Positions 28,254 through 62,705 of a DNA stretch of 64,000 nt are shown in pieces. The position numbers and the translations under genes were made by a program. The notes beneath the pieces were generated by a model. The model was not told the DNA's origin. It searched no databases and saw nothing but the letters and a program-made list of their open reading frames with translations. The number at the start of each line of letters is the position of its first letter. The first letter of the stretch is position 1. Origin of the DNA: Chloroflexota bacterium (GTDB lineage: Bacteria; Chloroflexota; Anaerolineae; Promineifilales; Promineifilaceae); the NCBI GenBank assembly GCA_020628815.1, contig JAHDEN010000001.1, positions 36,288 to 100,287 on the forward strand. Reading direction: 5' to 3'.

Positions 28254-29148
28254 ATGAGCGAAGAACTAAGATTTGACGGCCGTGTAGCTATCGTCACCGG
28301 AGCAGGTGGCGGATTGGGCGCTGAGTATGCAAAAATTTTAGCCGCACGCGGTGCCAGCGTGGTTGTGAACGACCTTGGTGGCTCTGTCAACGGACAGGGT
28401 GGCGATAACTCTGCGGCCGATCGCGTCGTCAACGAGATCAAAGCGGCCGGTGGTGAAGCTGTTGCCAACTACGAAAGCGTTGAAGACGGTGAACGGATTG
28501 TTGAGCAAGCGATGGACACATTTGGCAAAATCGACATTCTCATCAACAACGCCGGGATTCTGCGCGACAAATCTTTTGCAAAAATGAGCGAAGAGGAATG
28601 GTCTTCTGTCTATCGGGTTCATCTGTATGGCTCTTTCAAAACCCGCGGCTTGGCCCCACATGCGTGCGGGCGGCTACGGCCGGATGGTGATGGCCGCTTC
28701 ATCTTCAGGCGCATATGGCAACTTTGGTCAAGCCAACTATGGCGCCATGAAAATGGGATTGATCGGTCTAATCCGTACCCTAGCCATTGAAGGAATGAAG
28801 TACGACATCAAATCAAACGCTATTTTGCCCTACGGTGGCACCCGCATGACTGAAGGACTCGTCCCTGAAAATGTGTACAAAGCGACAGCGCCTGAAAATG
28901 CGGCTCCAATGGTGGCGTATTTGTGTCACGAAAGCTTTAAAGATAGCGGCCAAGCGTATGAAGTGGGCGGTGGATTTATGTCTCAAATCAGATGGCAGCG
29001 CTCAAAAGGGCATCTTTTCCCGTTAGATGGTGGCATTACAATCGAAAATATCGCAGCCAATTGGGACAGCGTAACTGACTTTAGTCAACCCGCTTACCCC
29101 ACATCTGCGGCCGATGCCTATGCTGAAATCATCAAAAACGCTGGCTAG
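28254..29148 (+). pseudogene. Short-chain dehydrogenase/reductase (MFE-2-type hydroxyacyl-CoA dehydrogenase-like) interrupted by a +1 frameshift
   Basis: Frame A gives TGAGGGLG...NNAGILRD...VHLYGSFK. Frame B continues [15 protein letters not shown]...[18 protein letters not shown] (catalytic YxxxK). The switch falls at the AAAACCC run, 28638-28644. Confidence 0.7.
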
Positions 29149-29164
29149 TAATCAGTAAAAAGTG

Positions 29165-29223
29165 ATAAGTAGAAAGTATGAAGCCCCTGTGAAGCTACTG
29201 CCGGCTTCATACTTCTTACTTAT
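29165..29223. repeat. Imperfect 21-bp inverted repeat (hairpin) between the SDR and thioesterase genes
   Basis: ATAAGTAGAAAGTATGAAGCC ... 17 nt ... GGCTTCATACTTCTTACTTAT. Confidence 0.5.
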
Positions 29224-29235
29224 AACTTCACGCTC

Positions 29236-29664
29236 ATGAAAGACTTGCTCGCCCCATACAACTACACCCTTGAGCTGCCCGTTTTGTGGGGACATATGGA
29301 TAGCATGGGGCATGTGAACAACACCGTCTATTTTCGGTACATGGAAAGCGCCCGCTTAGAATACATTTTACGCTTTGAGCCAGAGCGCTTTGGGGCCGGT
29401 ATGATTTTAGGGTCTACAAGTTGTAAATTTGTTTTCCCCCTCACCTACCCTGACACCATTACGGTTGGAGCCAAAATTGTAAAGCTCGAAAAGTACAAGG
29501 CCCATATGGAGCAAATTATTGTCAGCCATACTCATCAACGGGTAGCGTCCGTCGGCACGGCCGTTTTGGTTGGATATGATTACGAAACACTGGCAAAGGC
29601 ACCCCTTCCAGAATCTGTGCGACAAATCATGATTGAATTAGATGACCCTGAAATAATCGATTAA
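29236..29664 (+). CDS. 4HBT/YbgC-type acyl-CoA thioesterase (hotdog fold)
   Basis: 'VLWGHMDSMGHVNNTVYFRYME' is the typical thioesterase N-terminal motif. Length 142 aa. Confidence 0.8.
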   Translation: MKDLLAPYNYTLELPVLWGHMDSMGHVNNTVYFRYMESARLEYILRFEPERFGAGMILGSTSCKFVFPLTYPDTITVGAKIVKLEKYKAHMEQIIVSHTHQRVASVGTAVLVGYDYETLAKAPLPESVRQIMIELDDPEIID

Positions 29665-29769
29665 ACAAGACGAGCCGTAATCTTTTTAAACATTTTCTTC
29701 CAGCCAAAAATCAAAACAGAAAAAACAGATTCTATCGAAAAAGAATAAGGCATAAGTTTAGCTTGCCTC

Positions 29770-30663
29770 CTAATTTTGGCTCACTGCATCCGCCACAAAA
29801 TCAAATTCCAGCTCTATTTCCTCAACTACCCCGTGATAATCAAAGCCGTTATCAGCATTGTTTAAAATATTGTAATCGCTACGATTTACAGTTGTTTTGG
29901 CTTTGCCTCGCAACTCCTCTAAGGAGTCAACCAAAAGCTCTACACCAAATGTTGCCTGCTGGGTTGTTCCCCGAATGGTTAAATTCCCCGTTACGCTGAA
30001 GGTATAAAGCTGCCCTACTTCAACTTCTTCCGGCAAACCAGATAAAGCACTGGGGGCAAATTCTCCAAACTCATAGATGTCTTGAGCTGTTAGCAATACA
30101 CAGCAACGAATCGATAGATCTCTTTGGGGATCATCGGTTACAAGTGAACGTAGATTTACTCGGATCACGCCAAGTTGCGAATTAGCAGGCGTATTAAAAT
30201 CAACAATAATGTCACCCGCTATCTGGTTTGTCCGGCCGACTGCTGTTCCCTCTGGAAAAGTCTCATAAACTGAAAATCTAGCCTCAGATTGATCTGAATC
30301 GATACGAAAAAGTTGAGGGGCCAATGTGGGTTCCGCTGTGGGCGTAGGTTCGATTGTTGGTTCTAATGAGGGTTCGAGTGGTGGCTCATTCTTGATTTCC
30401 TCTGTTACAGCACCTTCTTCTTGCACAACAGGAGCCAAGAGCTCTTGGGTAGGTAGTGGCACTTCAGCGATAACGGTCTGAGTTGATGCAGAAACCGGAG
30501 CAGCTAATGTGGGAGCACTAATTGGCTGGCTCGGCTCGGCCGTACCTCCAGTGATTGTGATGAAGGCAAAAAGCGAGACCAAACCACCAAAGATCGCTCC
30601 TGCGCCAAACAAAGCCATATTATACAAAAGGTTTTTTCGAAAAGTATTTTTTGATTGATTCAT
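29770..30663 (-). CDS. Membrane-anchored YceI-like domain protein
   Basis: N-terminal TM helix and a Pro/Thr/Glu-rich linker. 'FRIDSDQSEARFSVYE...GRTNQIAGDIIVD' resembles the YceI family. Confidence 0.65.
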   Translation of the reverse strand: MNQSKNTFRKNLLYNMALFGAGAIFGGLVSLFAFITITGGTAEPSQPISAPTLAAPVSASTQTVIAEVPLPTQELLAPVVQEEGAVTEEIKNEPPLEPSLEPTIEPTPTAEPTLAPQLFRIDSDQSEARFSVYETFPEGTAVGRTNQIAGDIIVDFNTPANSQLGVIRVNLRSLVTDDPQRDLSIRCCVLLTAQDIYEFGEFAPSALSGLPEEVEVGQLYTFSVTGNLTIRGTTQQATFGVELLVDSLEELRGKAKTTVNRSDYNILNNADNGFDYHGVVEEIELEFDFVADAVSQN

Positions 30664-30916
30664 AATTGTATTTGTAGTTAGGATCTACAGGCCGAGTAAA
30701 TTTCTTAATTTTCAGAACCCAGTTGAAAAATGATGCGTTCAAATGTTTCAAATTTCGATTTCTCGAATTAAAGTTTTTCTTGAGGACCTATCTTATCGAA
30801 TCAAGATTAATCATTAAACCGCAATATAGCGTAGGGCTCCTCAGTCATTTGGCGGATGCGTTACTTAACCGGAGTAGGTAGGCTTTTGAAACAAACTCTT
30901 TATTCAAAACGAAACT

Positions 30917-31366
30917 ATGATGACACAAAACATAAAATCTAATCCGCTTGCCTCAATCATCGAGGAATATGGATATTATCTAACGCTCATTGTGGCCTTG
31001 GTTGCTACGCTGGGGAGCCTTTATTTCAGCGAGGTGCGTCAATTTGAACCCTGCCGACTGTGTTGGTTTCAGCGAATCATGATGTATCCAATTGGAATTC
31101 TTGCCGTGGTTGGCATTATCAAACAGGATGAGTATTTGCCCAATTACATTCTCCCTCTTTCGGTCATAGGCATTGGCATCTCCATCTATCATATTTTGAT
31201 TCAGAACGGAATAATCGTGCAATCTTCAGGTTGTACAACCGTGCTTTGCTCAATTAAATACATCAATTGGCTTGGCTTTATTTCAATCCCGGTTTTAGCA
31301 GGGGCCGCATTTCTACTCATCAACATTTTGATGTTGACTAGCCTGAAATTTGCTAATTCAGAATAA
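30917..31366 (+). CDS. bdbC: Disulfide bond formation protein, DsbB/BdbC family
   Basis: Four TM segments. First-loop motif 'EPCRLCWFQRIMMYP' and a second Cys pair (SSGCTTVLC). Confidence 0.8.
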   Translation: MMTQNIKSNPLASIIEEYGYYLTLIVALVATLGSLYFSEVRQFEPCRLCWFQRIMMYPIGILAVVGIIKQDEYLPNYILPLSVIGIGISIYHILIQNGIIVQSSGCTTVLCSIKYINWLGFISIPVLAGAAFLLINILMLTSLKFANSE

Positions 31367-31414
31367 TGAAGAGCAATCTCATTTCATGATTTATTTTTGA
31401 ATATTGACAATAGC

Positions 31415-32038
31415 TTAATGTTCTTGAGCATGCGAACCATGATCTGAAAGCTGAGCGTCAAACCATTGGTGGGTTGCGATTTTAAGCCTCTCATTAGCCG
31501 TAGAGTAACTTATTTTTCCACCTTCTAGCAGTGGCTGATACACAACTTCAAGATGCTCAAATCCCGCCTCTAACTCAGCCAGCCCCGGCATATCGTGCCC
31601 GTGGATGAGAGCGGGATCGCCAAAATCACCTGTTTGGAAACGCTCGGCTTCCTCTGCCAAATGAGCCTGAATCAGTTCGATTTGACTCAAATCGCCGTCA
31701 TCAGAAAGAACCTGCTGAACGCCACCAAACTCTGTTTTTTCGAAAATATGCGTGGTCCGCTCAAGATCAAACGGCATCACTTTTAAGCTACGTTCCGCAA
31801 TCTCTGCTTGCCTATCAGATATCATTTCAGCATGTAGTTCATCCGAATGGACCATGCCTTCTGTATGCACCATTCCTTGTGTGTGAATCATAGGTTCGTT
31901 TGCTTGACTGCTGCCCACACCTAGGAAATCAAAGCTGAACAAGATAGCAACGACGGCAATCGTCGTGAGGAAAACTGTTGCAAGGATTATGATCGCCTGG
32001 CGATTATTTCCACTTTTATTTGTGATGGGTTGATTCAT
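31415..32038 (-). CDS. Membrane-anchored His-rich protein of unknown function
   Basis: N-terminal TM helix. His-rich repeat IHTQGMVHTEGMVHSDELH and a C-terminal HGSHAQEH. Overlaps the MarR gene end by 23 nt. Confidence 0.6.
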   Translation of the reverse strand: MNQPITNKSGNNRQAIIILATVFLTTIAVVAILFSFDFLGVGSSQANEPMIHTQGMVHTEGMVHSDELHAEMISDRQAEIAERSLKVMPFDLERTTHIFEKTEFGGVQQVLSDDGDLSQIELIQAHLAEEAERFQTGDFGDPALIHGHDMPGLAELEAGFEHLEVVYQPLLEGGKISYSTANERLKIATHQWFDAQLSDHGSHAQEH

Positions 32039-32453
32039 TGATCGCCTCCACGAGTAGGTTTATTGAGTTAAAAATTACTGTTTGAGAATCAGGTGGAATA
32101 TGAGTCAGGATTTGTTCATATTTTTTTTGCCTCGCTTCAGCAACATCGGCTGCAAGAATTTCCCCTTTTTCAGTTAAACACCAAACCCACGCCCTTCCAT
32201 CATTCAAATCTCTTTCTCGGTTTACCCACTCACGCTTTAACATTTGCTTGAGCAAGCGACTTACCGTGCTTTTCGCTAAATTTAAGCGTTCAACCAAAAC
32301 TTGCTGGGGCAGCTGCTTGTCGGCTGAAAGCTCCATGAGAACATAAGCTTCTCCGATACTAAGCGGCTTGCCACATGGAGTCTCGCCGTTTTTGTGTAAT
32401 CCAAAGGCTCTGACAAATGAAATAATTTGCTCTTCAAGGTGTTTACTATTCAT
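32016..32453 (-). CDS. MarR-family transcriptional regulator
   Basis: Winged-helix region 'LNLAKSTVSRLLKQMLKREWVNRERDLNDGR'. Start placed at the ATG at 32453; the ORF track extends to 32489. Confidence 0.8.
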   Translation of the reverse strand: MNSKHLEEQIISFVRAFGLHKNGETPCGKPLSIGEAYVLMELSADKQLPQQVLVERLNLAKSTVSRLLKQMLKREWVNRERDLNDGRAWVWCLTEKGEILAADVAEARQKKYEQILTHIPPDSQTVIFNSINLLVEAINESTHHK

Positions 32454-32549
32454 AATTAGTTCGATCTTACAACTAGTTAGTTCGAACAAGCAACTATTTT
32501 CCGCAAATTGATACTACTCTTTATAATTTTCTCAAGAATAGGTTCAGTT

Positions 32550-33935
32550 TTATTTTTCGAGCTGTACACTTATTAGTGTCATACCAGACTCACTTTCAAA
32601 GTAGATTTCACTTCCTATGCTGTGAGCTCTCTCTTGCATCCCGCGTAAACCAAAATGCTTTGAGACATTACTTAAAACATTTTGTTGAATACCGGTACCA
32701 TTATCAACAATTGAGAGTTGAATTAATTTTGGCTTGAACTCTAATTTTGCTGACAAATTGCTCCCGTTTGAATGCTTTAGGCTGTTGTTTAACCCCTCTT
32801 GCGCAATACGATAAAGGGCCAACTCTTCGTCCATAGATAGTCTTTGAATATTGCCTGCTGATTGAAACTGAATTGATATCCCCTCTCGGCCGATACCAAG
32901 AGACTTAACCAGCATATCGAGTGCGGGCACCAAACCAAGCTCGTCTAAATAGGACGGCCGTAAATCTTGAATCATTGCTCTTAAGTTAGACGAAGTCAGT
33001 GCGATTTGTTCTCGCAAAGGCTCACTTTCGCTTGGTTGAATATCAAGCAACTGAACCAGTTGATCGATATGTATCAGCGACTGGATTGTGTCATCATGTA
33101 GCTCTTGAGCCAACCGTTTTCGCTCTTCTTCTTGACCAGACTGAATCATAGTCGCATACCGGTGTAGTGAATTCTGGTTTTCACCAAGTTTTTGAACCAT
33201 GCTCTCAAGCTCGGCATACAATTCATTAATCTCTTGGATACCAGAGACAAGGGGGACTTTCTGATCATAATTGCCATTTCCGACTTCTTGAGCGTAAGAG
33301 TTTAAGATCGCGAGCGGCTTAAGTACCCACCGATTAGTGCTCCACATGATCAAGAAAAAGATAAAAACAAGTGGGATCAAAAGTAGTGGAATAAGCAGTG
33401 TTAAATTTAAGCGAGCAAATCGGCCGCCGTCCCAGAATTCCTCAATCACAAAAGCCCATCCCAAGCTCTCAACAGGTCCATATGAGATTAGATGAATCGA
33501 ATCTGGAAACGGCTCACTTATCGCACCACTCTCCCCATTCAACGCTTCATCAACACCTGGATGTGTAACCAGATGGCGAGAAGGATGCACGTCGCCTGAG
33601 TAGTAAATAACGTTCTTTTGTTGATCAACAATTAAAATCGCCTGATCTGTTTGATCATTTTTTAAGATAGCTAACTCATGCGCCAACATCTCGGCTTGAA
33701 ATGCACCATCCCCTGCAGACAACTGATCAGCTTTGCTCTCTAAAAGGGCAATAGCAAATTGCGCCTCCTGAGCATTCCGACTCTCAACCAACAGCTCCAT
33801 TTCTGCCCGGTGTAATAACATGCTCCAAAGGGCAAAACCGGTTAAGAGAAGCATGATGGGCAAAAAAATCAAAGGGATTGACTGCAGAGACAAAATCCGC
33901 TTGGGAGCATGGAATAAATTATTGGCGCGTTTCAA
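32550..33935 (-). CDS. NarL-class sensor histidine kinase (two TM helices, extracytoplasmic sensor, HAMP, HisKA_3, HATPase)
   Basis: H-box 'RLAQELHDDTIQSL', N-box 'QEGLNNSLKHS' and 'DNGTGI'. Two hydrophobic segments flank a ~150 aa domain. Confidence 0.85.
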   Translation of the reverse strand: MKRANNLFHAPKRILSLQSIPLIFLPIMLLLTGFALWSMLLHRAEMELLVESRNAQEAQFAIALLESKADQLSAGDGAFQAEMLAHELAILKNDQTDQAILIVDQQKNVIYYSGDVHPSRHLVTHPGVDEALNGESGAISEPFPDSIHLISYGPVESLGWAFVIEEFWDGGRFARLNLTLLIPLLLIPLVFIFFLIMWSTNRWVLKPLAILNSYAQEVGNGNYDQKVPLVSGIQEINELYAELESMVQKLGENQNSLHRYATMIQSGQEEERKRLAQELHDDTIQSLIHIDQLVQLLDIQPSESEPLREQIALTSSNLRAMIQDLRPSYLDELGLVPALDMLVKSLGIGREGISIQFQSAGNIQRLSMDEELALYRIAQEGLNNSLKHSNGSNLSAKLEFKPKLIQLSIVDNGTGIQQNVLSNVSKHFGLRGMQERAHSIGSEIYFESESGMTLISVQLEK

Positions 33936-33961
33936 TCTTCTTGGTCCTATTAGGCCGATGG

Positions 33962-34624
33962 TTAAATTTTAATAACTCCCATATTGGTTGCCTTACTAAG
34001 GGCCTCGGTCCGATTTGATACATCTAACTTCCGATAAATATTTGCCAAATGGCTCTGCACCGTGCGACTGCTAATCCCTTTTTCAACCCCTATTTGCTTA
34101 TTCGTCTTCCCGTTTTTCAACATCTGCAACATCTCCACCTCCCGATCTGTGAGTGGATTTTTTGTTTCTTGAGCAAGTTGACCAATCAACTTTTGGGCAA
34201 TGGCTGGGGACAAGGCTGATCGGCCGCCATGAATCGATTTTATAGCAGAGATTAACTCTATTGGGGTTGCAGATTTCAGCATGTAACCATCGGCACCAGT
34301 GGATAAAACTGCGGAAATATACGGATCATCATCATAAGCAGATAGGATCAAGACCCGAATGTTTGGGTATGTATGCCGGATAAATTTAGTTGTTTCTATC
34401 CCGTTCATTTCCGGCATTTTTATATCTAAAATAGCAACATCAACTTTTGAGTTGCAGGTAGAAAGATAATCGATGACCTCTTGACCATTCGAAGCTTCAT
34501 AGATGACCTGAACTTCATCCGTCTTTTCAACAAACTGACGAATGCCCGCTCTGACCATCGCATGATCGTCGGCTAACACCGCTCGTATTTTCATTGATTT
34601 ATTTATCATGTCTGATTCAATCAT
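33962..34624 (-). CDS. NarL/LuxR-family response regulator
   Basis: REC motifs (LADDH, VAILDIKMPEMNG, YMLK) and a C-terminal LuxR helix-turn-helix (LTDREVEMLQMLKNGKTNKQIG). Its ATG overlaps the upstream gene's TGA (ATGA). Confidence 0.9.
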   Translation of the reverse strand: MIESDMINKSMKIRAVLADDHAMVRAGIRQFVEKTDEVQVIYEASNGQEVIDYLSTCNSKVDVAILDIKMPEMNGIETTKFIRHTYPNIRVLILSAYDDDPYISAVLSTGADGYMLKSATPIELISAIKSIHGGRSALSPAIAQKLIGQLAQETKNPLTDREVEMLQMLKNGKTNKQIGVEKGISSRTVQSHLANIYRKLDVSNRTEALSKATNMGVIKI

Positions 34625-35013
34625 TCGATCAATTCGTCCAGAGTTGGTTTCAAAAGATCGGCCGGTTGCGAGCCAAAAAATCGATTAGTTATCTCCCCAT
34701 CTTCCGAAATAAGAGCAACGGACGGGTGGCCCCGGAGTGCTAGGTCATTTTGAATTTTCTGATTTGCGGGCTCATTTGCATCAAACCGATAAAATTTAAT
34801 TGATGGATACTCTTCTTCAAGCCCATTCACGATGGGAGCAAACTCTTCTCACGGCGCTCACGGGTCGGTAAAGAATAAGACAAAGGCGGGGCCATCGAAA
34901 GTGACTTCTTGTGCAGACTCAACTTCGGCCGAATCTGGCTCAGATCGAGAACAACTTGCTAACCCGATCGCTAATAAACTAAAAAAAAATGCAATAAATT
35001 TCCACTTTGTCAT
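34621..35013 (-). CDS. Thioredoxin-fold lipoprotein with two in-frame TGA codons at the CxxC positions (putative UxxU selenoprotein, 130 aa)
   Basis: Minus-strand translation from the ATG at 35013: MTKWKFIAFFFSLLAIGLASC (lipobox) ...GPAFVLFFTDP-[TGA 34860-34858]-A-P-[TGA 34851-34849]-EEFAPIVNGLEEEY...LRGHPSVALISEDGE (cis-Pro loop). This aligns with FWAxWCGPCxxxAPxl of thioredoxins. There are no other stops and the frame is preserved. The ORF track shows only the distal 69 aa. Confidence 0.6.
34816..34842 (-). promoter_or_regulatory. Candidate bacterial SECIS-like hairpin downstream of the two TGA codons
   Basis: mRNA UUUG-CU-CCCAU [CGUGA] AUGGG-CU-UGAA: a 5-bp upper stem, a 2x2 internal loop, a 4-bp lower stem (two G-U pairs) and a GU-containing apical loop that starts 17 nt and 26 nt after the two UGAs. 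Confidence 0.3.
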
Positions 35014-35026
35014 ATTGATTTACTTG

Positions 35027-35530
35027 TTATCTTTGAGCTTGAAGTTCCTGAATGCTAGGAGACCATGTGCTTTTAATATAACCCAATACCGCATCAATTT
35101 CCTCGTCGCTTAACATGTCTTCATAGGCAGGCATGTTACTTTCAGCCTGCATATTTGGGTCAAGTTCTCGGGTCCCATATCGGATACGGTCGAGCAAATA
35201 CTGGTCATTGTGATGCCACGTATGTCCATCTTCGTCATGCGGTGGTGCTCTGAATGTCCCATCTGCGTTGCGCTGTTGCCAATCTTCTTGACCTTCAAGA
35301 TTCTCTCCGTGACACGACGCACAATTTTCTGCATAAACAATTTTACCAAGTTCTAAACCATCGGCGCTTAAAAGGGTTGAGCCAACCATGATTGATTCAG
35401 CCGCCCGATTTTCATCACGCCTAATCGCCAATATTCCCATACCAAACATGATAACTGTGGCAAAAATGATAATGGGGAGAATTGGGGCACCACTTTTATT
35501 TGAAGACCGATTTTTTTTGTTCTTTGCCAT
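35027..35530 (-). CDS. Membrane-anchored class I c-type cytochrome
   Basis: N-terminal TM helix, heme-binding CASCHG motif and a distal Met ligand region (SNMPAY). Ends 13 nt upstream of the Trx-like gene start. Confidence 0.8.
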   Translation of the reverse strand: MAKNKKNRSSNKSGAPILPIIIFATVIMFGMGILAIRRDENRAAESIMVGSTLLSADGLELGKIVYAENCASCHGENLEGQEDWQQRNADGTFRAPPHDEDGHTWHHNDQYLLDRIRYGTRELDPNMQAESNMPAYEDMLSDEEIDAVLGYIKSTWSPSIQELQAQR

Positions 35531-35657
35531 CGATATGTTTGAAATTTACCTTTACGATTCTAGGCAGATGTATTTTAGATGTGCCATTGGCCCGCATCCG
35601 GCATTGCAGAAATTGCATAATTCCTAAACGCTAGTCGTAAAGCTCTTCTATCATTAT

Positions 35658-36212
35658 TTAAGCTTCGGCCGTGGATTGAAAAGCTGACACAGCTAGAATA
35701 ACCAGCAACGGAACCTCAATAACCTTAGTTAAAATCGCCACAAAATCATAGTGATCATGGGTTAGAAAATATCCCAAAATTGTCACCAGTGTGTACATCG
35801 CCAGCACAATCGACACTATCCGCTTTTGAATTGGAATAAATTGCTTTGGTATAGCCCATAAGATACCTAAGCCTAAAAAGCCGATTCCATTGAGAAGCAG
35901 TAGAGTGTCTCCCCAAACTGAGCCAACCATTAGATGAATCACACCTGTTGCTCCAGCTAAGGCTAAGCCGATGAGTGTCATCATGCCGGGCCGGGGAGAG
36001 AATAAGAATGCCCCTCCGGCCGCTAACAAGACAGCTCCAAGAATTCCGCCGATGATGAAACTGATATTGCTTGTACCAGACGCATGATCGTCTAAAACTT
36101 CGGCCGAAGTTTCTTCTTCTGGATCATCGCCATGCGATAAAACTGGAACAGCAAAAAGCAGACTTGAGAGCACAATAAGTAGAACACCAATTTTTTTAGA
36201 TTTTTTAATCAC
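35658..36212 (-). CDS. Integral membrane protein of unknown function (signal peptide plus 4-5 TM helices)
   Basis: Signal-like N-terminus ending VLSHGDDPEEE, followed by several hydrophobic helices. Same strand as, and upstream of, the cytochrome c gene. Confidence 0.65.
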   Translation of the reverse strand: MIKKSKKIGVLLIVLSSLLFAVPVLSHGDDPEEETSAEVLDDHASGTSNISFIIGGILGAVLLAAGGAFLFSPRPGMMTLIGLALAGATGVIHLMVGSVWGDTLLLLNGIGFLGLGILWAIPKQFIPIQKRIVSIVLAMYTLVTILGYFLTHDHYDFVAILTKVIEVPLLVILAVSAFQSTAEA

Positions 36213-36397
36213 TGAGGAAGCACCTTTGAACTAAATTATTACTGTAGAGTAGGCCTTTTATCTGCAGTGTACATCGGGTATTTAGCGGATAGCGACTAGG
36301 CCAAATGGCGGAAATATCTTGAATCGAAGTATAATACGACCGTGGGAGAGGCCAAACATGATAAGATCTAATTTTTCTCTAGAAAAAGGAATCACAT

Positions 36398-36718
36398 ATG
36401 AATGGACAGTTCGTAAATATAATAATCTTTGGGCTAATGATAAACCTCTTCATGTGGGCATACGGAGTATGGAAAAAGCTTAATTGGTCTGAATTTTTTC
36501 GGGACAATTATCTTCTTCCCCTATTCCTTACCGCTTGCGGCACATTGACCGGGTACCAGTATGGCTTAACGCTTGGTTCCTCTCTACTAATCGGTTTTAC
36601 TTTGGCAATATTGATTTGTCTCTTTTATGGGGTGCGATTTCATTCTGAATACACGCTTTATAAAACAAAGCCTTCACTCAACCTGCAATCACTCTTTAGC
36701 CGCACATCCAGCTCTTAA
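36398..36718 (+). CDS. Small membrane protein (106 aa, 3 TM helices)
   Basis: Hydrophobic ORF followed by a strong terminator. Confidence 0.5.
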   Translation: MNGQFVNIIIFGLMINLFMWAYGVWKKLNWSEFFRDNYLLPLFLTACGTLTGYQYGLTLGSSLLIGFTLAILICLFYGVRFHSEYTLYKTKPSLNLQSLFSRTSSS

Positions 36719-36750
36719 ACAATCCAGAATTAAGATTACGGATTGAAACA

Positions 36751-36790
36751 AAAAAGCCGCCTCGCAAATTATTGCGAGGCGGCTTTTTTG
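36751..36790. terminator. Bidirectional rho-independent terminator
   Basis: AAAAAA-GCCGCCTCGCAA-ATTA-TTGCGAGGCGGC-TTTTTT, between convergent genes. Confidence 0.85.
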
Positions 36791-36838
36791 TTTCATGGAG
36801 CAGGATTAATTGTCTTCGGCCGATGCAGTTACACAGGT

Positions 36839-37459
36839 TTAGCCAGCAAGCTCGTTCGAAAACTCAGTAAGCCGTGTTTTGACCCCATCTCCTAGATAGT
36901 CTAGAAAAATATCTGCAATTTGCTCTGGGGAGTAACGCCCTTCTGGGTTGTACCAAGATATGGCTAGATTAATGGCGCCAAATGCTAAAAGACGAAACAT
37001 CTCTAGATCGATGCCTTCAGCAATAACATCTTTTTCGCGTGCTTCAAGCAGCAGTTTGTCCCAATAGCGGTCGTAAGCGTCACGCTTGGCGATCACTTCG
37101 GTGCGCCATTCTGGGCTTAGGTGGCGCAAATCTTTCAGCAGCACATAGGCGAAATCTTGATAGTCTAGGCTCGCCCGCATGTGGGTCCGGAAAGCGGCCC
37201 GCAGTTTTTCCCAAATTTGTTCTTGCTCGCTCACGGCCGTCTCAACCGCTTCGATCAGATTGGTTAATGACAGATGCATGATGGCCAATAAAATCTCTTC
37301 TTTATTTTTGAAATGATAATAAAGTGCGGCCGAAGTCATCTCGAGAGATTCACTGATATCACGAATGCTGGTAGCGATGTACCCTTTTTCGCGAAAAAGC
37401 TTAGCAGCTTGTGCAATTATTTCTTCTTGGCGGCTTGAAATCTTATTAAGTTTAATCAT
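36839..37459 (-). CDS. TetR/AcrR-family transcriptional regulator
   Basis: N-terminal helix-turn-helix 'AAKLFREKGYIATSIRDISESLEMTSAALYYHFKNKEE'. Confidence 0.9.
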   Translation of the reverse strand: MIKLNKISSRQEEIIAQAAKLFREKGYIATSIRDISESLEMTSAALYYHFKNKEEILLAIMHLSLTNLIEAVETAVSEQEQIWEKLRAAFRTHMRASLDYQDFAYVLLKDLRHLSPEWRTEVIAKRDAYDRYWDKLLLEAREKDVIAEGIDLEMFRLLAFGAINLAISWYNPEGRYSPEQIADIFLDYLGDGVKTRLTEFSNELAG

Positions 37460-62039: not shown

Positions 62040-62705
62040 ATGGACTATAAACTTAAGCTTGTCAGCTTTAAATTATGACCTTACGTTCAGCGTTCGGTCA
62101 TAACGCTAAACCATTTGGGAGTTCCCTATGATATTGAGTACATCGATTTAGCTAACAAACCAGACTGGTTTTTAGAGATTTCGCCATTGGGAAAAGTGCC
62201 TGTTGTACAGGTAAATGACGGGGCATCGATATTTGAGTCTGCCGTGATCAACGAATTTGTCTCAGAAATCAATCCGCCCGTTATGCATCCGGCCGATCCT
62301 GTTGAAAAAGCTCGTAACCGGGCATGGATCGAATACGGGTCGGGCATGTTGGGCACAAATTTTCGATTACGGAATTCGAAAACGGCCGAAGAGTTTGCTG
62401 AAAATCGCAGCAAATTAATCGACCAGCTCAAAAAGGTTGAAGAACAAATAGATGAAGGCCCTTTCTTTAACGGGGAGGAATTTAGCCTCATCGACAGTTC
62501 GTACACACCTTTGTTTATGCAGCTGGATCTGATGAATAAGATTCATAACTTTGACATTTATGCAGAGACCCCAAAAGTCGGCCGATGGGCTGAGATGATG
62601 CTGTCTTTAGACGCGGTCAAAAGTTCAGTTGTCGAGGATTTTCCTGAGCTATTTACAGCCAGCATTTCTAAACGGGATGGATACTTGGGCCAGTTTTTGA
62701 ACTAG
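62040..62705 (+). CDS. Glutathione S-transferase-family protein with an in-frame TGA at the catalytic Cys position (putative selenoprotein, 221 aa)
   Basis: The ATG at 62040 is preceded by GAGG. Translation MDYKLKLVSFKL-[TGA 62076-62078]-PYVQRSVITLNHLGVPYDIEYIDLANKPDWFLEISPLGKVPVV matches the 'SFKLCPYVQR...DLANKPDWF..SPLGKVP' N-terminal domain of Cys-type GSTs. It is in the same frame as the track ORF 62115..62705. Confidence 0.65.
62085..62111 (+). promoter_or_regulatory. Candidate bacterial SECIS hairpin 6 nt downstream of the GST TGA
   Basis: GUUCAGCGUU [CGGUCAU] AACGCUAAAC: 9 bp with one C-A mismatch. The apical loop contains GGUC, as in the E. coli fdhF SECIS loop, and starts 16 nt after the UGA. 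Confidence 0.45.

What the first reader, a model, noticed from the sequence alone, without database searches (positions are those of the whole stretch)
30917..36212. Extracytoplasmic redox/signalling gene cluster built around the UxxU thioredoxin
The gene order on the minus strand is tight:
- 5-TM membrane protein (36212-35658).
- Membrane-anchored cytochrome c with CASCHG (35530-35027).
- UxxU thioredoxin lipoprotein, starting 13 nt after the cytochrome c stop.
- NarL-type response regulator, with an ATGA start/stop overlap at 34621-34624.
- HAMP/HisKA_3 sensor kinase with an extracytoplasmic domain.
- MarR regulator.
- His-rich membrane-anchored protein, overlapping MarR by 23 nt.

A DsbB/BdbC-family quinone-linked oxidase is encoded about 50 nt beyond the His-rich gene, on the opposite (convergent) strand.

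Every non-regulatory product is predicted to face the outside of the membrane. The arrangement suggests a dedicated, self-regulated extracytoplasmic thiol/selenol redox module, perhaps a BdbC/BdbD-like oxidase pair with a diselenide partner, cytochrome c-linked, and possibly responsive to metal or oxidant stress. I do not recognise this combination as a described system. The functional link is inference from adjacency only.
Basis: inference. Interest (0 to 1): 0.65.

Follow-up and report, generated by a model that had tools for sequence, protein, structure and literature searches.

The report
Selenium thioredoxin–cytochrome c envelope operon
A marine Chloroflexota bacterium carries a conserved five-gene operon (a membrane protein, a copper-island-type cytochrome c, a thioredoxin with two selenocysteines and its own two-component regulator) that probably protects the cell envelope against copper or related redox stress, while the neighbouring MarR, His-rich and DsbB genes are not part of it.

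Summary
They are not one system.

Block A runs from 36212 to 32550 on the minus strand. It encodes a 5-TM protein, a cytochrome c, a UAPU thioredoxin lipoprotein, a NarL-type regulator and a HisKA_3 kinase. This order recurs in six further complete loci, from Chloroflexota/Anaerolineae genome bins and unlabelled metagenome contigs, and in four cut ones. Protein identity to the window is 53-89%, and the flanks differ every time. One locus lies between Tn3-type transposase genes and one lies after an integrase gene.

Both TGA codons are kept in every copy. A small hairpin 12 nt after the second TGA has frozen synonymous sites, so the double selenocysteine is very probably real.

Block B (MarR, His-rich protein, YceI) lies on a separate contig from block A in one related genome. 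DsbB is in none of the 37 loci fetched. The proposed BdbC-diselenide pair is therefore not supported.

The cytochrome c is 39-53% identical to cytochromes on 280 proteobacterial plasmids. All 13 sampled lie in copper or metal islands, and 8 are immediately followed by a thioredoxin-fold gene.

Best reading: a self-regulated, probably mobile, copper/envelope-redox defence module. The mechanism is inferred.

The parts
35658..36212 (-). Block A gene 1. A membrane protein with a signal peptide, then a mature N-terminus HGDDPEEE with an Asp/Glu/His-rich tail, then five TM helices. It has no Cys. H93, H152, H154, D156, N108, K163 and E166 are invariant.
   Evidence: ORF. Weak DUF7475 hit. Only 17 relatives among 5.8 billion proteins. 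Alignment A4. AF2 model with pLDDT 78 has no significant PDB match.
35027..35530 (-). Block A gene 2. An N-terminally anchored mono-haem cytochrome c of the copper-island (copJ-position) type, carrying CASCH, APPHDEDGHTWHH and a Met-Pro motif.
   Evidence: tblastn finds homologues on 280 plasmids.
34621..35013 (-). Block A gene 3. A thioredoxin-fold lipoprotein (lipobox LASC) with the active site U-A-P-U and a His before the cis-Pro (RGHPS). Its TGA stop overlaps the response-regulator ATG.
   Evidence: UAPU is kept in all homologous loci.
34849..34860 (-). The two in-frame TGA codons (34860-34858 and 34851-34849) read as selenocysteine, separated by GCG CCG (Ala-Pro).
   Evidence: Both TGAs are invariant in 9 distinct sequences.
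34816..34842 (-). Candidate SECIS. The hairpin is CCCAU-CGUGA-AUGGG, 12 nt after the second UGA, with a possible lower stem UUUG/UGAA. The loop lies 20 and 29 nt from the two UGAs, so one hairpin could serve both.
   Evidence: It is the consensus structure. Pair counts are: G-C to A-U covariation at the closing pair, and a C-to-U change that keeps a G.U pair. Synonymous sites are frozen only in these codons. On its own the hairpin is weak (-4.8 kcal/mol, z -0.8).
33962..34624 (-). Block A gene 4. A NarL/LuxR-type response regulator.
   Evidence: It is 73-89% identical across loci.
32550..33935 (-). Block A gene 5. A sensor kinase: TM1, an outer domain of about 135 aa (faint Cache-like signal), TM2, HAMP, HisKA_3, HATPase_c.
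   Evidence: The outer domain gives only dCache_1 at E = 0.056.
32016..32489 (-). Block B. A MarR-family regulator, translationally coupled to the His-rich gene. It is not part of the conserved core.
   Evidence: Its best NCBIfam hit is the zinc-dependent AdcR family, far below the cut-off. It is found with the His-rich gene but away from block A in L036.
31415..32038 (-). Block B. A membrane-anchored protein with MVHTxGMVHT Met/His repeats and a C-terminal multi-His domain of about 130 aa. The domain belongs to a widespread unnamed family that PGAP labels 'aspartate carbamoyltransferase'.
   Evidence: No Pfam, NCBIfam or PDB sequence match. At least 871 relatives. The AF2 model has pLDDT 84 and no PDB fold match.
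30917..31366 (+). A BdbC-type DsbB disulfide oxidoreductase, convergent with the His-rich gene. It is a neighbour specific to this window, not a member of either conserved block.
   Evidence: tblastn finds it in none of the 37 loci fetched. No ORF lies at the equivalent place in L036.
29770..30663 (-). Block B. A membrane-anchored YceI-domain protein. It follows MarR and the His-rich gene in MAG-171 too.
   Evidence: Its upstream region is conserved.

Best explanation
The eight genes form two separable units.

Unit A (36212 to 32550, minus strand) is a conserved five-gene operon found in a small group of marine Chloroflexota/Anaerolineae, and it is probably mobile. A NarL-type two-component system, whose kinase has an outward Cache-like sensor domain, controls three envelope proteins:
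- A polytopic membrane protein without Cys. Its mature N-terminus starts with His and carries an Asp/Glu/His-rich tail, and it has a cluster of invariant His and Asp on the outer face.
- A membrane-anchored mono-haem cytochrome c of the family found at the copJ position of proteobacterial copper-resistance islands.
- A thioredoxin-fold lipoprotein whose CxxC is Sec-Ala-Pro-Sec. Both UGAs appear to be decoded with one short SECIS hairpin.

Most likely function (inferred): defence of the cell envelope against copper or a similar soft-metal and thiol-oxidising stress. In this reading the two selenols, together with the invariant His before the cis-Pro, either bind Cu(I) or repair copper-damaged thiols. 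The adjacent cytochrome c is the selenoprotein's redox partner. The membrane protein binds or passes on the metal.

Unit B (MarR, His/Met-rich protein, YceI) is a second, independently conserved unit, probably also metal-related, that happens to abut unit A here. DsbB is an unrelated neighbour.

Shown: gene content, conservation, separability of the units, conservation of Sec coding, and the copper context of the cytochrome c family.
Inferred: co-transcription, copper as the signal, and every mechanistic step.
For: Conservation of the core:
- The order 5-TM, cytochrome c, split thioredoxin, response regulator, kinase recurs in L008, L009/L010, L011, L015, L029 and L001. It recurs up to a contig end in L007, L004 and L028.
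- Gaps between genes run from -8 to 71 nt in relatives. Protein identity to the window is 53-89%.
- The upstream and downstream genes differ in every locus.
- L015 is bracketed by Tn3-family transposase genes. L009/L010 follow an integrase gene and precede a Cu-type P-type ATPase plus an HMA gene.

Selenocysteine:
- Both TGAs are invariant in 9 distinct sequences, and in a 43%-identical relative, L016.
- The reading frame is conserved on both sides of the TGAs.
- Invariant residues in the eight codons after the second TGA use one codon each, apart from one pair-preserving change. Elsewhere, invariant residues use 2-6 codons.
- The closing pair of the hairpin covaries between G-C and A-U.
- A second TGA-containing gene with a clearer hairpin lies in the same window.

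Separability:
- In MAG-171 the core is on contig 248 (L008). MarR, the His-rich gene and YceI are on contig 56 (L036).
- DsbB is found in no locus fetched.

Copper link:
- The cytochrome c has homologues on 280 plasmids at 39-53% identity over at least 60% of the query, with one short exception.
- All 13 sampled loci lie among metal genes: multicopper oxidase, CopC/D, DUF411 (the copG position), CueR, Cu-ATPase, SCO or PCuAC in twelve; a DUF305 gene with DsbA and CcdA in the thirteenth.
- In 8 of the 13 the next gene is DsbA-, DsbE- or SCO-family.
- The Cupriavidus hit lies beside DUF411 in the cop cluster, where copJ lies. copJ is described as a putative cytochrome c and is listed among metal-induced cop genes (PMC12029693, PMC11647585).
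- Thioredoxin-fold proteins that bind Cu(I) in copper defence are established for the Scs system (PMC10907172).
- Unchecked earlier notes of this scan on another Chloroflexota genome report the same UxxU family beside a small cytochrome c and copper genes.
Against: - There are no transcript data. Only DNA runs hold the stretch.
- No recognised copper gene lies within or beside the module in the window. Among the related loci only L009/L010 have one.
- The two-component system is NarL/HisKA_3 type with a Cache-like sensor, not the CopRS/CusRS type usual for copper.
- The 5-TM protein and the thioredoxin have no relatives on the copper-island plasmids.
- The copper inference therefore rests on one protein family plus sequence motifs.
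- The hairpin is short and no more stable than shuffled sequence.
- A haem c centre cannot reduce a diselenide on thermodynamic grounds (established chemistry). The direction and meaning of any electron transfer are open.
- The module holds no CcdA/DsbD-type reductant supply.
Confidence: 0.5

Rival explanations
1. All eight genes form one extracytoplasmic thiol/selenol system. The BdbC-type DsbB re-oxidises the UxxU thioredoxin as a BdbC/BdbD-like pair, and MarR and the His-rich protein are further parts.
For: DsbB is a real BdbC-type protein 48 nt from the His-rich gene. MarR plus the His-rich gene follow the kinase in the window and in L011, with a remnant in L009. The whole 29-37 kb tract has lower G+C than its flanks.
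Against: DsbB is absent from all 37 related loci, including those with MarR and the His-rich gene. In MAG-171, MarR and the His-rich gene lie on a different contig from the core. L008, L015 and L016 lack them. The thioredoxin is a 110-aa classic thioredoxin without the helical insert of DsbA/BdbD.
Confidence: 0.05
2. A dedicated cytochrome c maturation or repair function. The thioredoxin is a ResA/CcmG-like reductase that keeps the haem-binding cysteines of the neighbouring cytochrome c (or of cytochromes in general) reduced. The module is a regulated respiratory accessory, with copper at most an indirect stress.
For: The thioredoxin gene lies directly after a cytochrome c gene in all loci. 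In proteobacterial islands the homologous cytochrome c is followed by DsbE-family or TlpA genes, with CcdA nearby. c-type cytochrome assembly is a known target of copper toxicity (PMC4600104).
Against: The protein is PF00085 thioredoxin, not the Redoxin/AhpC-TSA (TlpA/ResA) family. No ccdA, resB or resC lies in any related Chloroflexota locus. A housekeeping maturation factor would not be expected on a patchy unit flanked by transposase genes.
Confidence: 0.17
3. The module handles another soft metal or metalloid (mercury, silver, selenite, tellurite or arsenite), or general oxidant stress, rather than copper. The UxxU site acts as a very high-affinity binding or reduction site.
For: UxxU sites are listed for a putative mercuric-reductase-like metal-binding protein (PMC13188914). 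Tn3-type elements and integrases flank some copies. A paralogue of the 5-TM protein lies two genes from a MerR-family regulator gene.
Against: No mer, ars or ter genes lie in any locus. The only informative family link, the cytochrome c, points to copper islands in 12 of 13 samples.
Confidence: 0.15
4. The five genes travel together only because the genomes are closely related. The thioredoxin is a decaying pseudogene and there is no functional link.
For: All loci come from Chloroflexota or unlabelled metagenome contigs. The 5-TM family has only 17 members. The hairpin is not thermodynamically significant.
Against: The flanks differ in every locus while the five genes stay together down to 53-60% protein identity. 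Both TGAs and the frame on both sides are conserved in every copy. Synonymous sites are frozen at the hairpin. A pseudogene would accumulate varied lesions.
Confidence: 0.04

Closest known systems
Cytochrome c plus thioredoxin-fold gene pairs in proteobacterial copper-resistance islands (the copJ-position cytochrome c of the Cupriavidus cop cluster; the MCO-cytochrome c-DsbA arrangement on Roseobacter-group plasmids)
   Same: The cytochrome c is homologous, at 39-53% identity on plasmids. CxxCH, APPH[DN]xxGHTW[HK]H and the Met-Pro motif are invariant. In 8 of 13 sampled loci it is directly followed by a thioredoxin-fold gene, often with overlapping stop and start codons.
   Different: There the partner is a Cys-containing DsbA-, DsbE- or SCO-family protein among multicopper oxidase, CopC/D, CopG, CueR and ATPase genes. 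Here the partner is a PF00085 thioredoxin with UxxU. The companions are a DUF7475-like membrane protein and a NarL-type two-component system, with no recognised cop genes in the operon. To my knowledge the function of the proteobacterial pair has not been tested either.
Scs system (ScsABCD) of Salmonella
   Same: These are envelope thioredoxin-fold proteins with CxxC that bind Cu(I) and have thiol-oxidoreductase activity. They are induced as part of the copper stress response (PMC10907172).
   Different: There is no homology beyond the fold. Scs uses a DsbD-like ScsB as reductant supply and has no cytochrome c and no selenocysteine.
SelL / Prx-like UxxU selenoproteins
   Same: These have a thioredoxin-fold redox motif with two selenocysteines (UxxU), expected to form a diselenide. 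They are known from aquatic organisms and marine metagenomes (PMC2398784, which cites Shchedrina 2007; PMC13188914).
   Different: Those belong to the peroxiredoxin-like family. This one is a classic PF00085 thioredoxin, for which the two papers read here list only UxxC and CxxU. It is a lipoprotein in a fixed operon.
ResA/CcmG-CcdA cytochrome c maturation reductases
   Same: An extracytoplasmic, membrane-tethered thioredoxin-fold protein encoded next to a cytochrome c-related gene.
   Different: It belongs to a different thioredoxin subfamily. There is no ccdA or resBC in any locus, and the distribution is patchy and apparently mobile.
BdbC/BdbD (DsbB/DsbA) disulfide oxidase pair
   Same: A BdbC-type DsbB is encoded 48 nt from block B in this window.
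   Different: The adjacency is unique to this genome, and the thioredoxin lacks the DsbA architecture.

Membership tests
Bacterial selenoprotein gene | The in-frame UGA aligns with a redox Cys of homologues, and the frame is conserved on both sides. | tested here: met
   UAPU aligns with the CxxC of thioredoxins and with CPAC and CSEC in distant Cys forms. Both TGAs and both flanking reading frames are kept in 9 distinct sequences plus L016.
Bacterial selenoprotein gene | A SECIS stem-loop shortly downstream of the UGA. The criterion recalled from bSECISearch, not checked here, is an apical loop about 16-37 nt from the UGA with G/U in the loop. | tested here: inconclusive
   The hairpin CCCAU-CGUGA-AUGGG has its loop 20 and 29 nt from the two UGAs. 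It shows frozen synonymous sites, one covarying pair and one G.U-preserving change. Its folding energy is no better than that of shuffles.
Bacterial selenoprotein gene | The genome encodes selA, selB, selD and tRNA-Sec. | not testable with these tools
No tRNA lies in the window. Indirect support comes from a second TGA-containing GST-like gene with the hairpin AGCGUU-CGGUCAU-AACGCU at 62040-62705.
Thioredoxin family (PF00085) | A profile match above the curated cut-off, a CxxC-position motif and a cis-Pro loop. | tested here: met
   34.7 bits against a cut-off of 23.5. 95 PDB thioredoxin chains match. RGHPS aligns with the cis-Pro loop.
SelL / Prx-like UxxU selenoproteins | A peroxiredoxin-like (AhpC/TSA, PF00578-type) domain carrying UxxU. 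| tested here: not met
   UxxU is present, but the only Pfam hits are Thioredoxin and Thioredoxin_8. There is no AhpC/TSA or Redoxin hit.
Copper-island (copJ-position) cytochrome c | A mono-haem CxxCH domain homologous to the cytochromes encoded in cop islands. | tested here: met
   39-53% identity to plasmid genes. Motifs are invariant in A6. The Cupriavidus hit lies beside DUF411 (the copG position) in the cop cluster.
Copper-island (copJ-position) cytochrome c | It lies among recognised copper homeostasis genes. | tested here: not met
   No cop, cue or cus gene lies in the window near the module. Among relatives only L009/L010 have a neighbouring P-type ATPase and HMA gene.
BdbC/BdbD-type oxidase pair | Conserved co-occurrence of the DsbB-type gene with its thioredoxin-fold partner. 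| tested here: not met
   DsbB is found in none of the 37 loci fetched.
ResA/CcmG-CcdA system II maturation | A TlpA/Redoxin-family thioredoxin-like protein encoded with ccdA and/or resBC. | tested here: not met
   The subfamily is wrong. No CcdA or ResB family appears among the called genes of any related locus.
DUF7475 (PF24287) | A profile match above the gathering score. | tested here: inconclusive
   28.7 bits against 31.3. Precomputed hits are recorded for several homologues. No paper mentions the family.
NarL-type two-component system | A receiver plus GerE regulator with a HisKA_3 kinase. | tested here: met

The most novel reading that the evidence does not exclude
The operon is a selenium-dependent, cytochrome c-coupled copper redox device that works without a multicopper oxidase. 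The Sec-x-x-Sec pair plus the invariant His before the cis-Pro forms a Se2N site, comparable to the Cys2His site of Sco proteins, that captures Cu(I) at the outer membrane face. The tethered cytochrome c oxidises the bound metal, or the selenols, and passes the electrons to the respiratory chain. The DUF7475-like protein takes up the resulting Cu(II) with its N-terminal His and acidic tail. The whole unit moves between genomes as a self-regulated cassette.
Probability: 0.12. Interest if true: 0.8.

Novelty: new variant of a known kind. Interest (0 to 1): 0.5.

Why it matters
If the reading holds, it gives a defined genetic context, and therefore a testable function, to a thioredoxin with two selenocysteines. 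That kind of site has been predicted for years but has no assigned role in bacteria.

It also ties the site to a cytochrome c family that recurs, uncharacterised, beside thioredoxin-fold genes in the copper-resistance islands of marine and soil Proteobacteria. A common logic (cytochrome c plus a thiol or selenol oxidoreductase in copper defence) would then span phyla.

In practical terms:
- The thioredoxin gene is split into fragments of about 50 and about 71 aa in every database entry seen, so annotation should be corrected.
- Two partner proteins, the DUF7475-like membrane protein and the multi-His domain labelled 'aspartate carbamoyltransferase', have confident models with no solved relative.

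Tried and rejected
- RNA evidence: only four DNA runs hold the stretch, so co-transcription could not be tested.
- Minimum-energy folding downstream of the TGAs: not significant. The SECIS argument was moved to comparative evidence.
- Promoter and terminator scan: not above chance.
- Genome and metagenome pattern scans for thioredoxin relatives: few loci. Two came from genome contigs, where one pattern was wasted on Cys codons. One came from metagenome contigs.
- Inverted repeats of a Tn3-type transposon around the core in L015: none of 25 nt or more. 'Mobile' rests on flanking transposase and integrase genes and on the variable flanks.
- PDB fold searches for the 5-TM protein and the His-rich domain: nothing significant. 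The best match for the 5-TM protein was TSPO at E = 0.8. The His-rich domain gave only meaningless Hsp70 and MreB rows.
- Plasmid contexts of the His-rich family: not clearly metal-related.
- 5-TM protein and thioredoxin against plasmids: no match.
- A TGA-to-Trp or TGA-to-Gly recoding of the organism: rejected. Ordinary genes in the window are open under table 11, and in this window the thioredoxin gene itself ends in TGA (TAA or TAG in L001 and L008).
- P0022, a distant 5-TM relative, could not be located.

Full report
**1. Observation**

On the minus strand:
- 5-TM protein, 35658-36212.
- Cytochrome c, 35027-35530.
- Thioredoxin, 34621-35013, starting 13 nt after the cytochrome c stop.
- Response regulator, 33962-34624, sharing ATGA with the thioredoxin stop.
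- Kinase, 32550-33935.
- MarR, 32016-32489.
- His-rich protein, 31415-32038, overlapping MarR by 23 nt.

On the plus strand, DsbB (30917-31366) converges on the His-rich gene and ends 48 nt from it.

Profile searches confirm Cytochrom_C, Thioredoxin (with U read as C), Response_reg plus GerE, HAMP plus HisKA_3 plus HATPase_c, MarR, and a BdbC-type DsbB. The 5-TM protein only approaches DUF7475, at 28.7 bits against a cut-off of 31.3. The His-rich protein matches nothing in Pfam, NCBIfam or PDB sequences.

Outward topology was read from signal peptides, charged N-termini followed by TM anchors, and a lipobox. It is an inference from sequence. Consensus promoter and terminator scans are uninformative.

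**2. The selenoprotein**

The thioredoxin frame is interrupted only by TGA at codons 52 and 55, giving F-T-D-P-U-A-P-U-E-E-F at the CxxC position.

The large protein database holds only C-terminal fragments of 71-72 aa from relatives. On their contigs each fragment is preceded by an N-terminal ORF of about 50 aa, and reading through gives UAPU again. Two Chloroflexota MAG contigs do the same. So do L009, L011, L015 and a 43%-identical metagenome copy, L016.

In nine distinct sequences both TGAs are invariant. The 15 nt CCCAUCGUGAAUGGG, 12 nt after the second TGA, form the consensus hairpin.
- Among invariant amino-acid columns, the eight after the second TGA (E, F, P, I, V, N, G, E) use a single codon each, except for one Pro CCC-to-CCU change that keeps a G.U pair.
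- Elsewhere, invariant Pro, Ala, Val, Leu, Arg and Gly columns use 3-6 codons.
- The closing pair switches between G-C (5 sequences) and A-U (2) and is unpaired in 2, including the window.
- The loop lies 20 and 29 nt from the two UGAs, so one element could serve both.

By energy alone the hairpin is unremarkable.

A second TGA-containing gene, GST-like, with a clearer hairpin lies at 62040-62705.

I put real double-Sec decoding at about 0.85.

The papers read here list UxxU for Prx-like/SelL proteins, an HMA-like metal-binding protein and FmdB. For PF00085 thioredoxins they list only UxxC and CxxU.

A profile search of 1.8 billion representatives returned three kinds of hit:
- Many fragments of 71-79 aa that start just after the motif.
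- Four full-length proteins reading WxPW, on contigs of 572-701 bp. These are probably UxPU translated under table 4, which is an inference because their DNA could not be fetched.
- Cys forms, at only about 32% identity.

**3. Neighbourhood comparison**

The order 5-TM, cytochrome c, thioredoxin (UAPU), regulator, kinase is present in:
- L008 (MAG-171).
- L009/L010.
- L011 (an Anaerolineae MAG).
- L015.
- L029.
- L001.

It is present up to the contig end in L007, L004 and L028.

Intergenic gaps in relatives run from -8 to 71 nt. The 127-nt gap between the 5-TM gene and the cytochrome c gene in the window is the largest. Identities to the window are:

| Protein | Identity to window |
|---|---|
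| 5-TM | 58-79% |
| Cytochrome c | 53-82% |
| Thioredoxin | 54-77% |
| Response regulator | 73-89% |
| Kinase | 54-85% |

Upstream and downstream genes differ in every locus:
- The window has a TetR gene and a small membrane protein upstream.
- L007 has an MttB-like gene.
- L011 has a LysR gene.
- L009 has an integrase gene upstream, and a Cu-type P-type ATPase with an HMA gene downstream.
- L015 has Tn3-family transposase genes on both sides, without detectable long inverted repeats.

The unit is therefore self-contained and has probably moved.

A paralogue of the 5-TM protein that lacks the His/acidic N-terminus stands alone, with DUF1801/CDGSH and MerR-family genes next to it, in the same MAG as L007. 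The distant L016 thioredoxin is not followed by a regulator.

**4. MarR, the His-rich protein and DsbB**

MarR plus the His-rich gene follow the kinase in the window and in L011. L009 keeps only a C-terminal remnant of 59-71 aa, behind an Rhs-like fragment. L008 and L015 have neither.

The closest His-rich homologue (69% identity) lies in MAG-171 on contig 56. There it overlaps MarR by 23 nt and is followed by a YceI gene like the one at 29770-30663. The five-gene core of that MAG is on contig 248.

Block B is thus an independent unit. DsbB is found in none of the 37 loci fetched, and nothing occupies its place in L036.

The His-rich C-terminal domain belongs to a family with at least 871 clusters. 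It is about 50-60% identical across phyla and has invariant His, Met and Asp residues. PGAP labels it 'aspartate carbamoyltransferase'. Its AF2 model is confident and has no PDB relative. The Anaerolineae forms add MVHTxGMVHT repeats, a motif type typical of Cu(I)-binding Met/His segments (my knowledge).

**5. What the core probably does**

The only core protein with informative relatives is the cytochrome c.

tblastn finds homologues on 280 plasmids, mostly Roseobacter-group plus Cupriavidus, Sinorhizobium, Burkholderia and Halomonas. Identity is 39-53% apart from one short 62% match. CxxCH, APPH[DN]xxGHTW[HK]H and the Met-Pro motif are invariant.

I read 13 annotated loci:
- All 13 are metal or copper islands. 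Twelve carry copper genes (multicopper oxidase, CopC/CopD, DUF411 at the copG position, CueR, Cu-ATPase, SCO or PCuAC). The thirteenth has a DUF305 gene with DsbA and CcdA.
- In 8 the cytochrome c gene is immediately followed by a thioredoxin-fold gene, often with overlapping stop and start codons: DsbA family in four, DsbE in two, SCO in two.
- In 10 such a gene lies within three to four genes.
- In Cupriavidus the hit lies beside DUF411 in the cop cluster, which is where copJ lies. copJ is described as a putative cytochrome c (PMC12029693) and is listed among metal-induced cop genes (PMC11647585).

Thioredoxin-fold proteins that bind Cu(I) and repair thiols under copper stress are established for the Scs system (PMC10907172). 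c-type cytochrome assembly is a known copper target (PMC4600104).

Within the module, further hints point the same way. All are inferences from sequence:
- The mature 5-TM protein begins with His, followed by an Asp/Glu/His-rich tail of variable length. It has invariant His93, His152, His154 and Asp156 near the outer face and no Cys.
- The thioredoxin has an invariant His before the cis-Pro, which in the thioredoxin fold packs against the CxxC position.

Unchecked earlier notes of this scan on another Chloroflexota genome describe the same UxxU family beside a small cytochrome c and copper genes. That is a lead that agrees, not independent proof.

Against the copper reading:
- The operon itself holds no recognised cop gene.
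- The two-component system is NarL type, and its outer domain gives only a faint Cache-like signal (dCache_1, E = 0.056).
- The 5-TM protein and the thioredoxin are absent from the plasmid set.
- There are no expression data.
- A diselenide is far too stable to be reduced by a haem c (established chemistry). The cytochrome is more plausibly an oxidant of the selenols or of bound Cu(I), or a client whose CxxCH the thioredoxin protects.

**6. Verdict**

There is a conserved, self-regulated, envelope-facing module joining a cytochrome c to a thioredoxin selenoprotein, and a metal link is likely. The module has five genes, not eight, and the DsbB pairing is an accident of this genome.

It is a new variant of a known kind: the cytochrome c plus thioredoxin-fold pair of copper islands, here with a double-Sec thioredoxin, an uncharacterised membrane partner and its own NarL-type system. 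My confidence by claim:

| Claim | Confidence |
|---|---|
| Anatomy of the two blocks | about 0.9 |
| Copper or soft-metal/envelope-redox function | about 0.5 |
| Any specific mechanism | about 0.2 |

Noticed in passing
window 28254-29148 (+): A short-chain dehydrogenase-like gene is split into two overlapping frames (28254-28790 and 28627-29148). This suggests a frameshift: a sequencing error, a pseudogene or programmed shifting.
   Followed up: no
window 62040-62705 (+): A GST-like gene has TGA at codon 13 (KLUPYV) and the hairpin AGCGUU-CGGUCAU-AACGCU starting 10 nt downstream. It is a second selenoprotein candidate in the same window.
   Followed up: partly
window 29000-37000: A tract of about 8 kb holding both blocks has G+C of 0.40-0.44, against about 0.48 on either side. 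This fits acquired DNA.
   Followed up: partly
L015 129-2819 and 7764-11518: Tn3-family transposase genes lie on both sides of the five-gene core. The upstream one is open only if a TGA is read through. No inverted repeats of 25 nt or more were found.
   Followed up: partly
L009 6775-7263: After the kinase comes an Rhs-like C-terminal fragment (NRYSYVLNSPVNFNDPSGH), then a remnant of the last 59-71 residues of the His-rich protein. These are traces of a lost block B.
   Followed up: partly
L013 216-2178 (same MAG as L007): A paralogue of the 5-TM protein, without the His/acidic N-terminus, stands alone. The next genes, on the opposite strand, are a DUF1801/OmdA/zf-CDGSH gene and then a MerR-family regulator gene.
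   Followed up: no
window 31415-32038 and relatives P0026-P0145: The multi-His C-terminal domain of about 130 aa belongs to a large family that is about 50-60% identical across phyla. NCBI names it 'aspartate carbamoyltransferase', apparently a misnomer. The confident AF2 model, two repeated hairpin-helix units, has no PDB relative.
   Followed up: partly
proteins P0152, P0155, P0183, P0202 (ENA contigs of 572-701 bp): Full-length relatives of the thioredoxin read W-x-P-W where this gene has U-A-P-U. They are probably TGA translated as Trp by a table-4 gene model on very short contigs.
   Followed up: partly
L018 2067-2309 (Indioceanicola plasmid): A 'GDCCVxC domain-containing (seleno)protein' is annotated in the same copper island as the cytochrome c-SCO pair.
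   Followed up: no
alignment A6 (cytochrome c family): An invariant His-rich motif, APPH[DN]xxGHTW[HK]H, is shared by the Chloroflexota and proteobacterial copper-island cytochromes. It is a possible second metal site.
   Followed up: no
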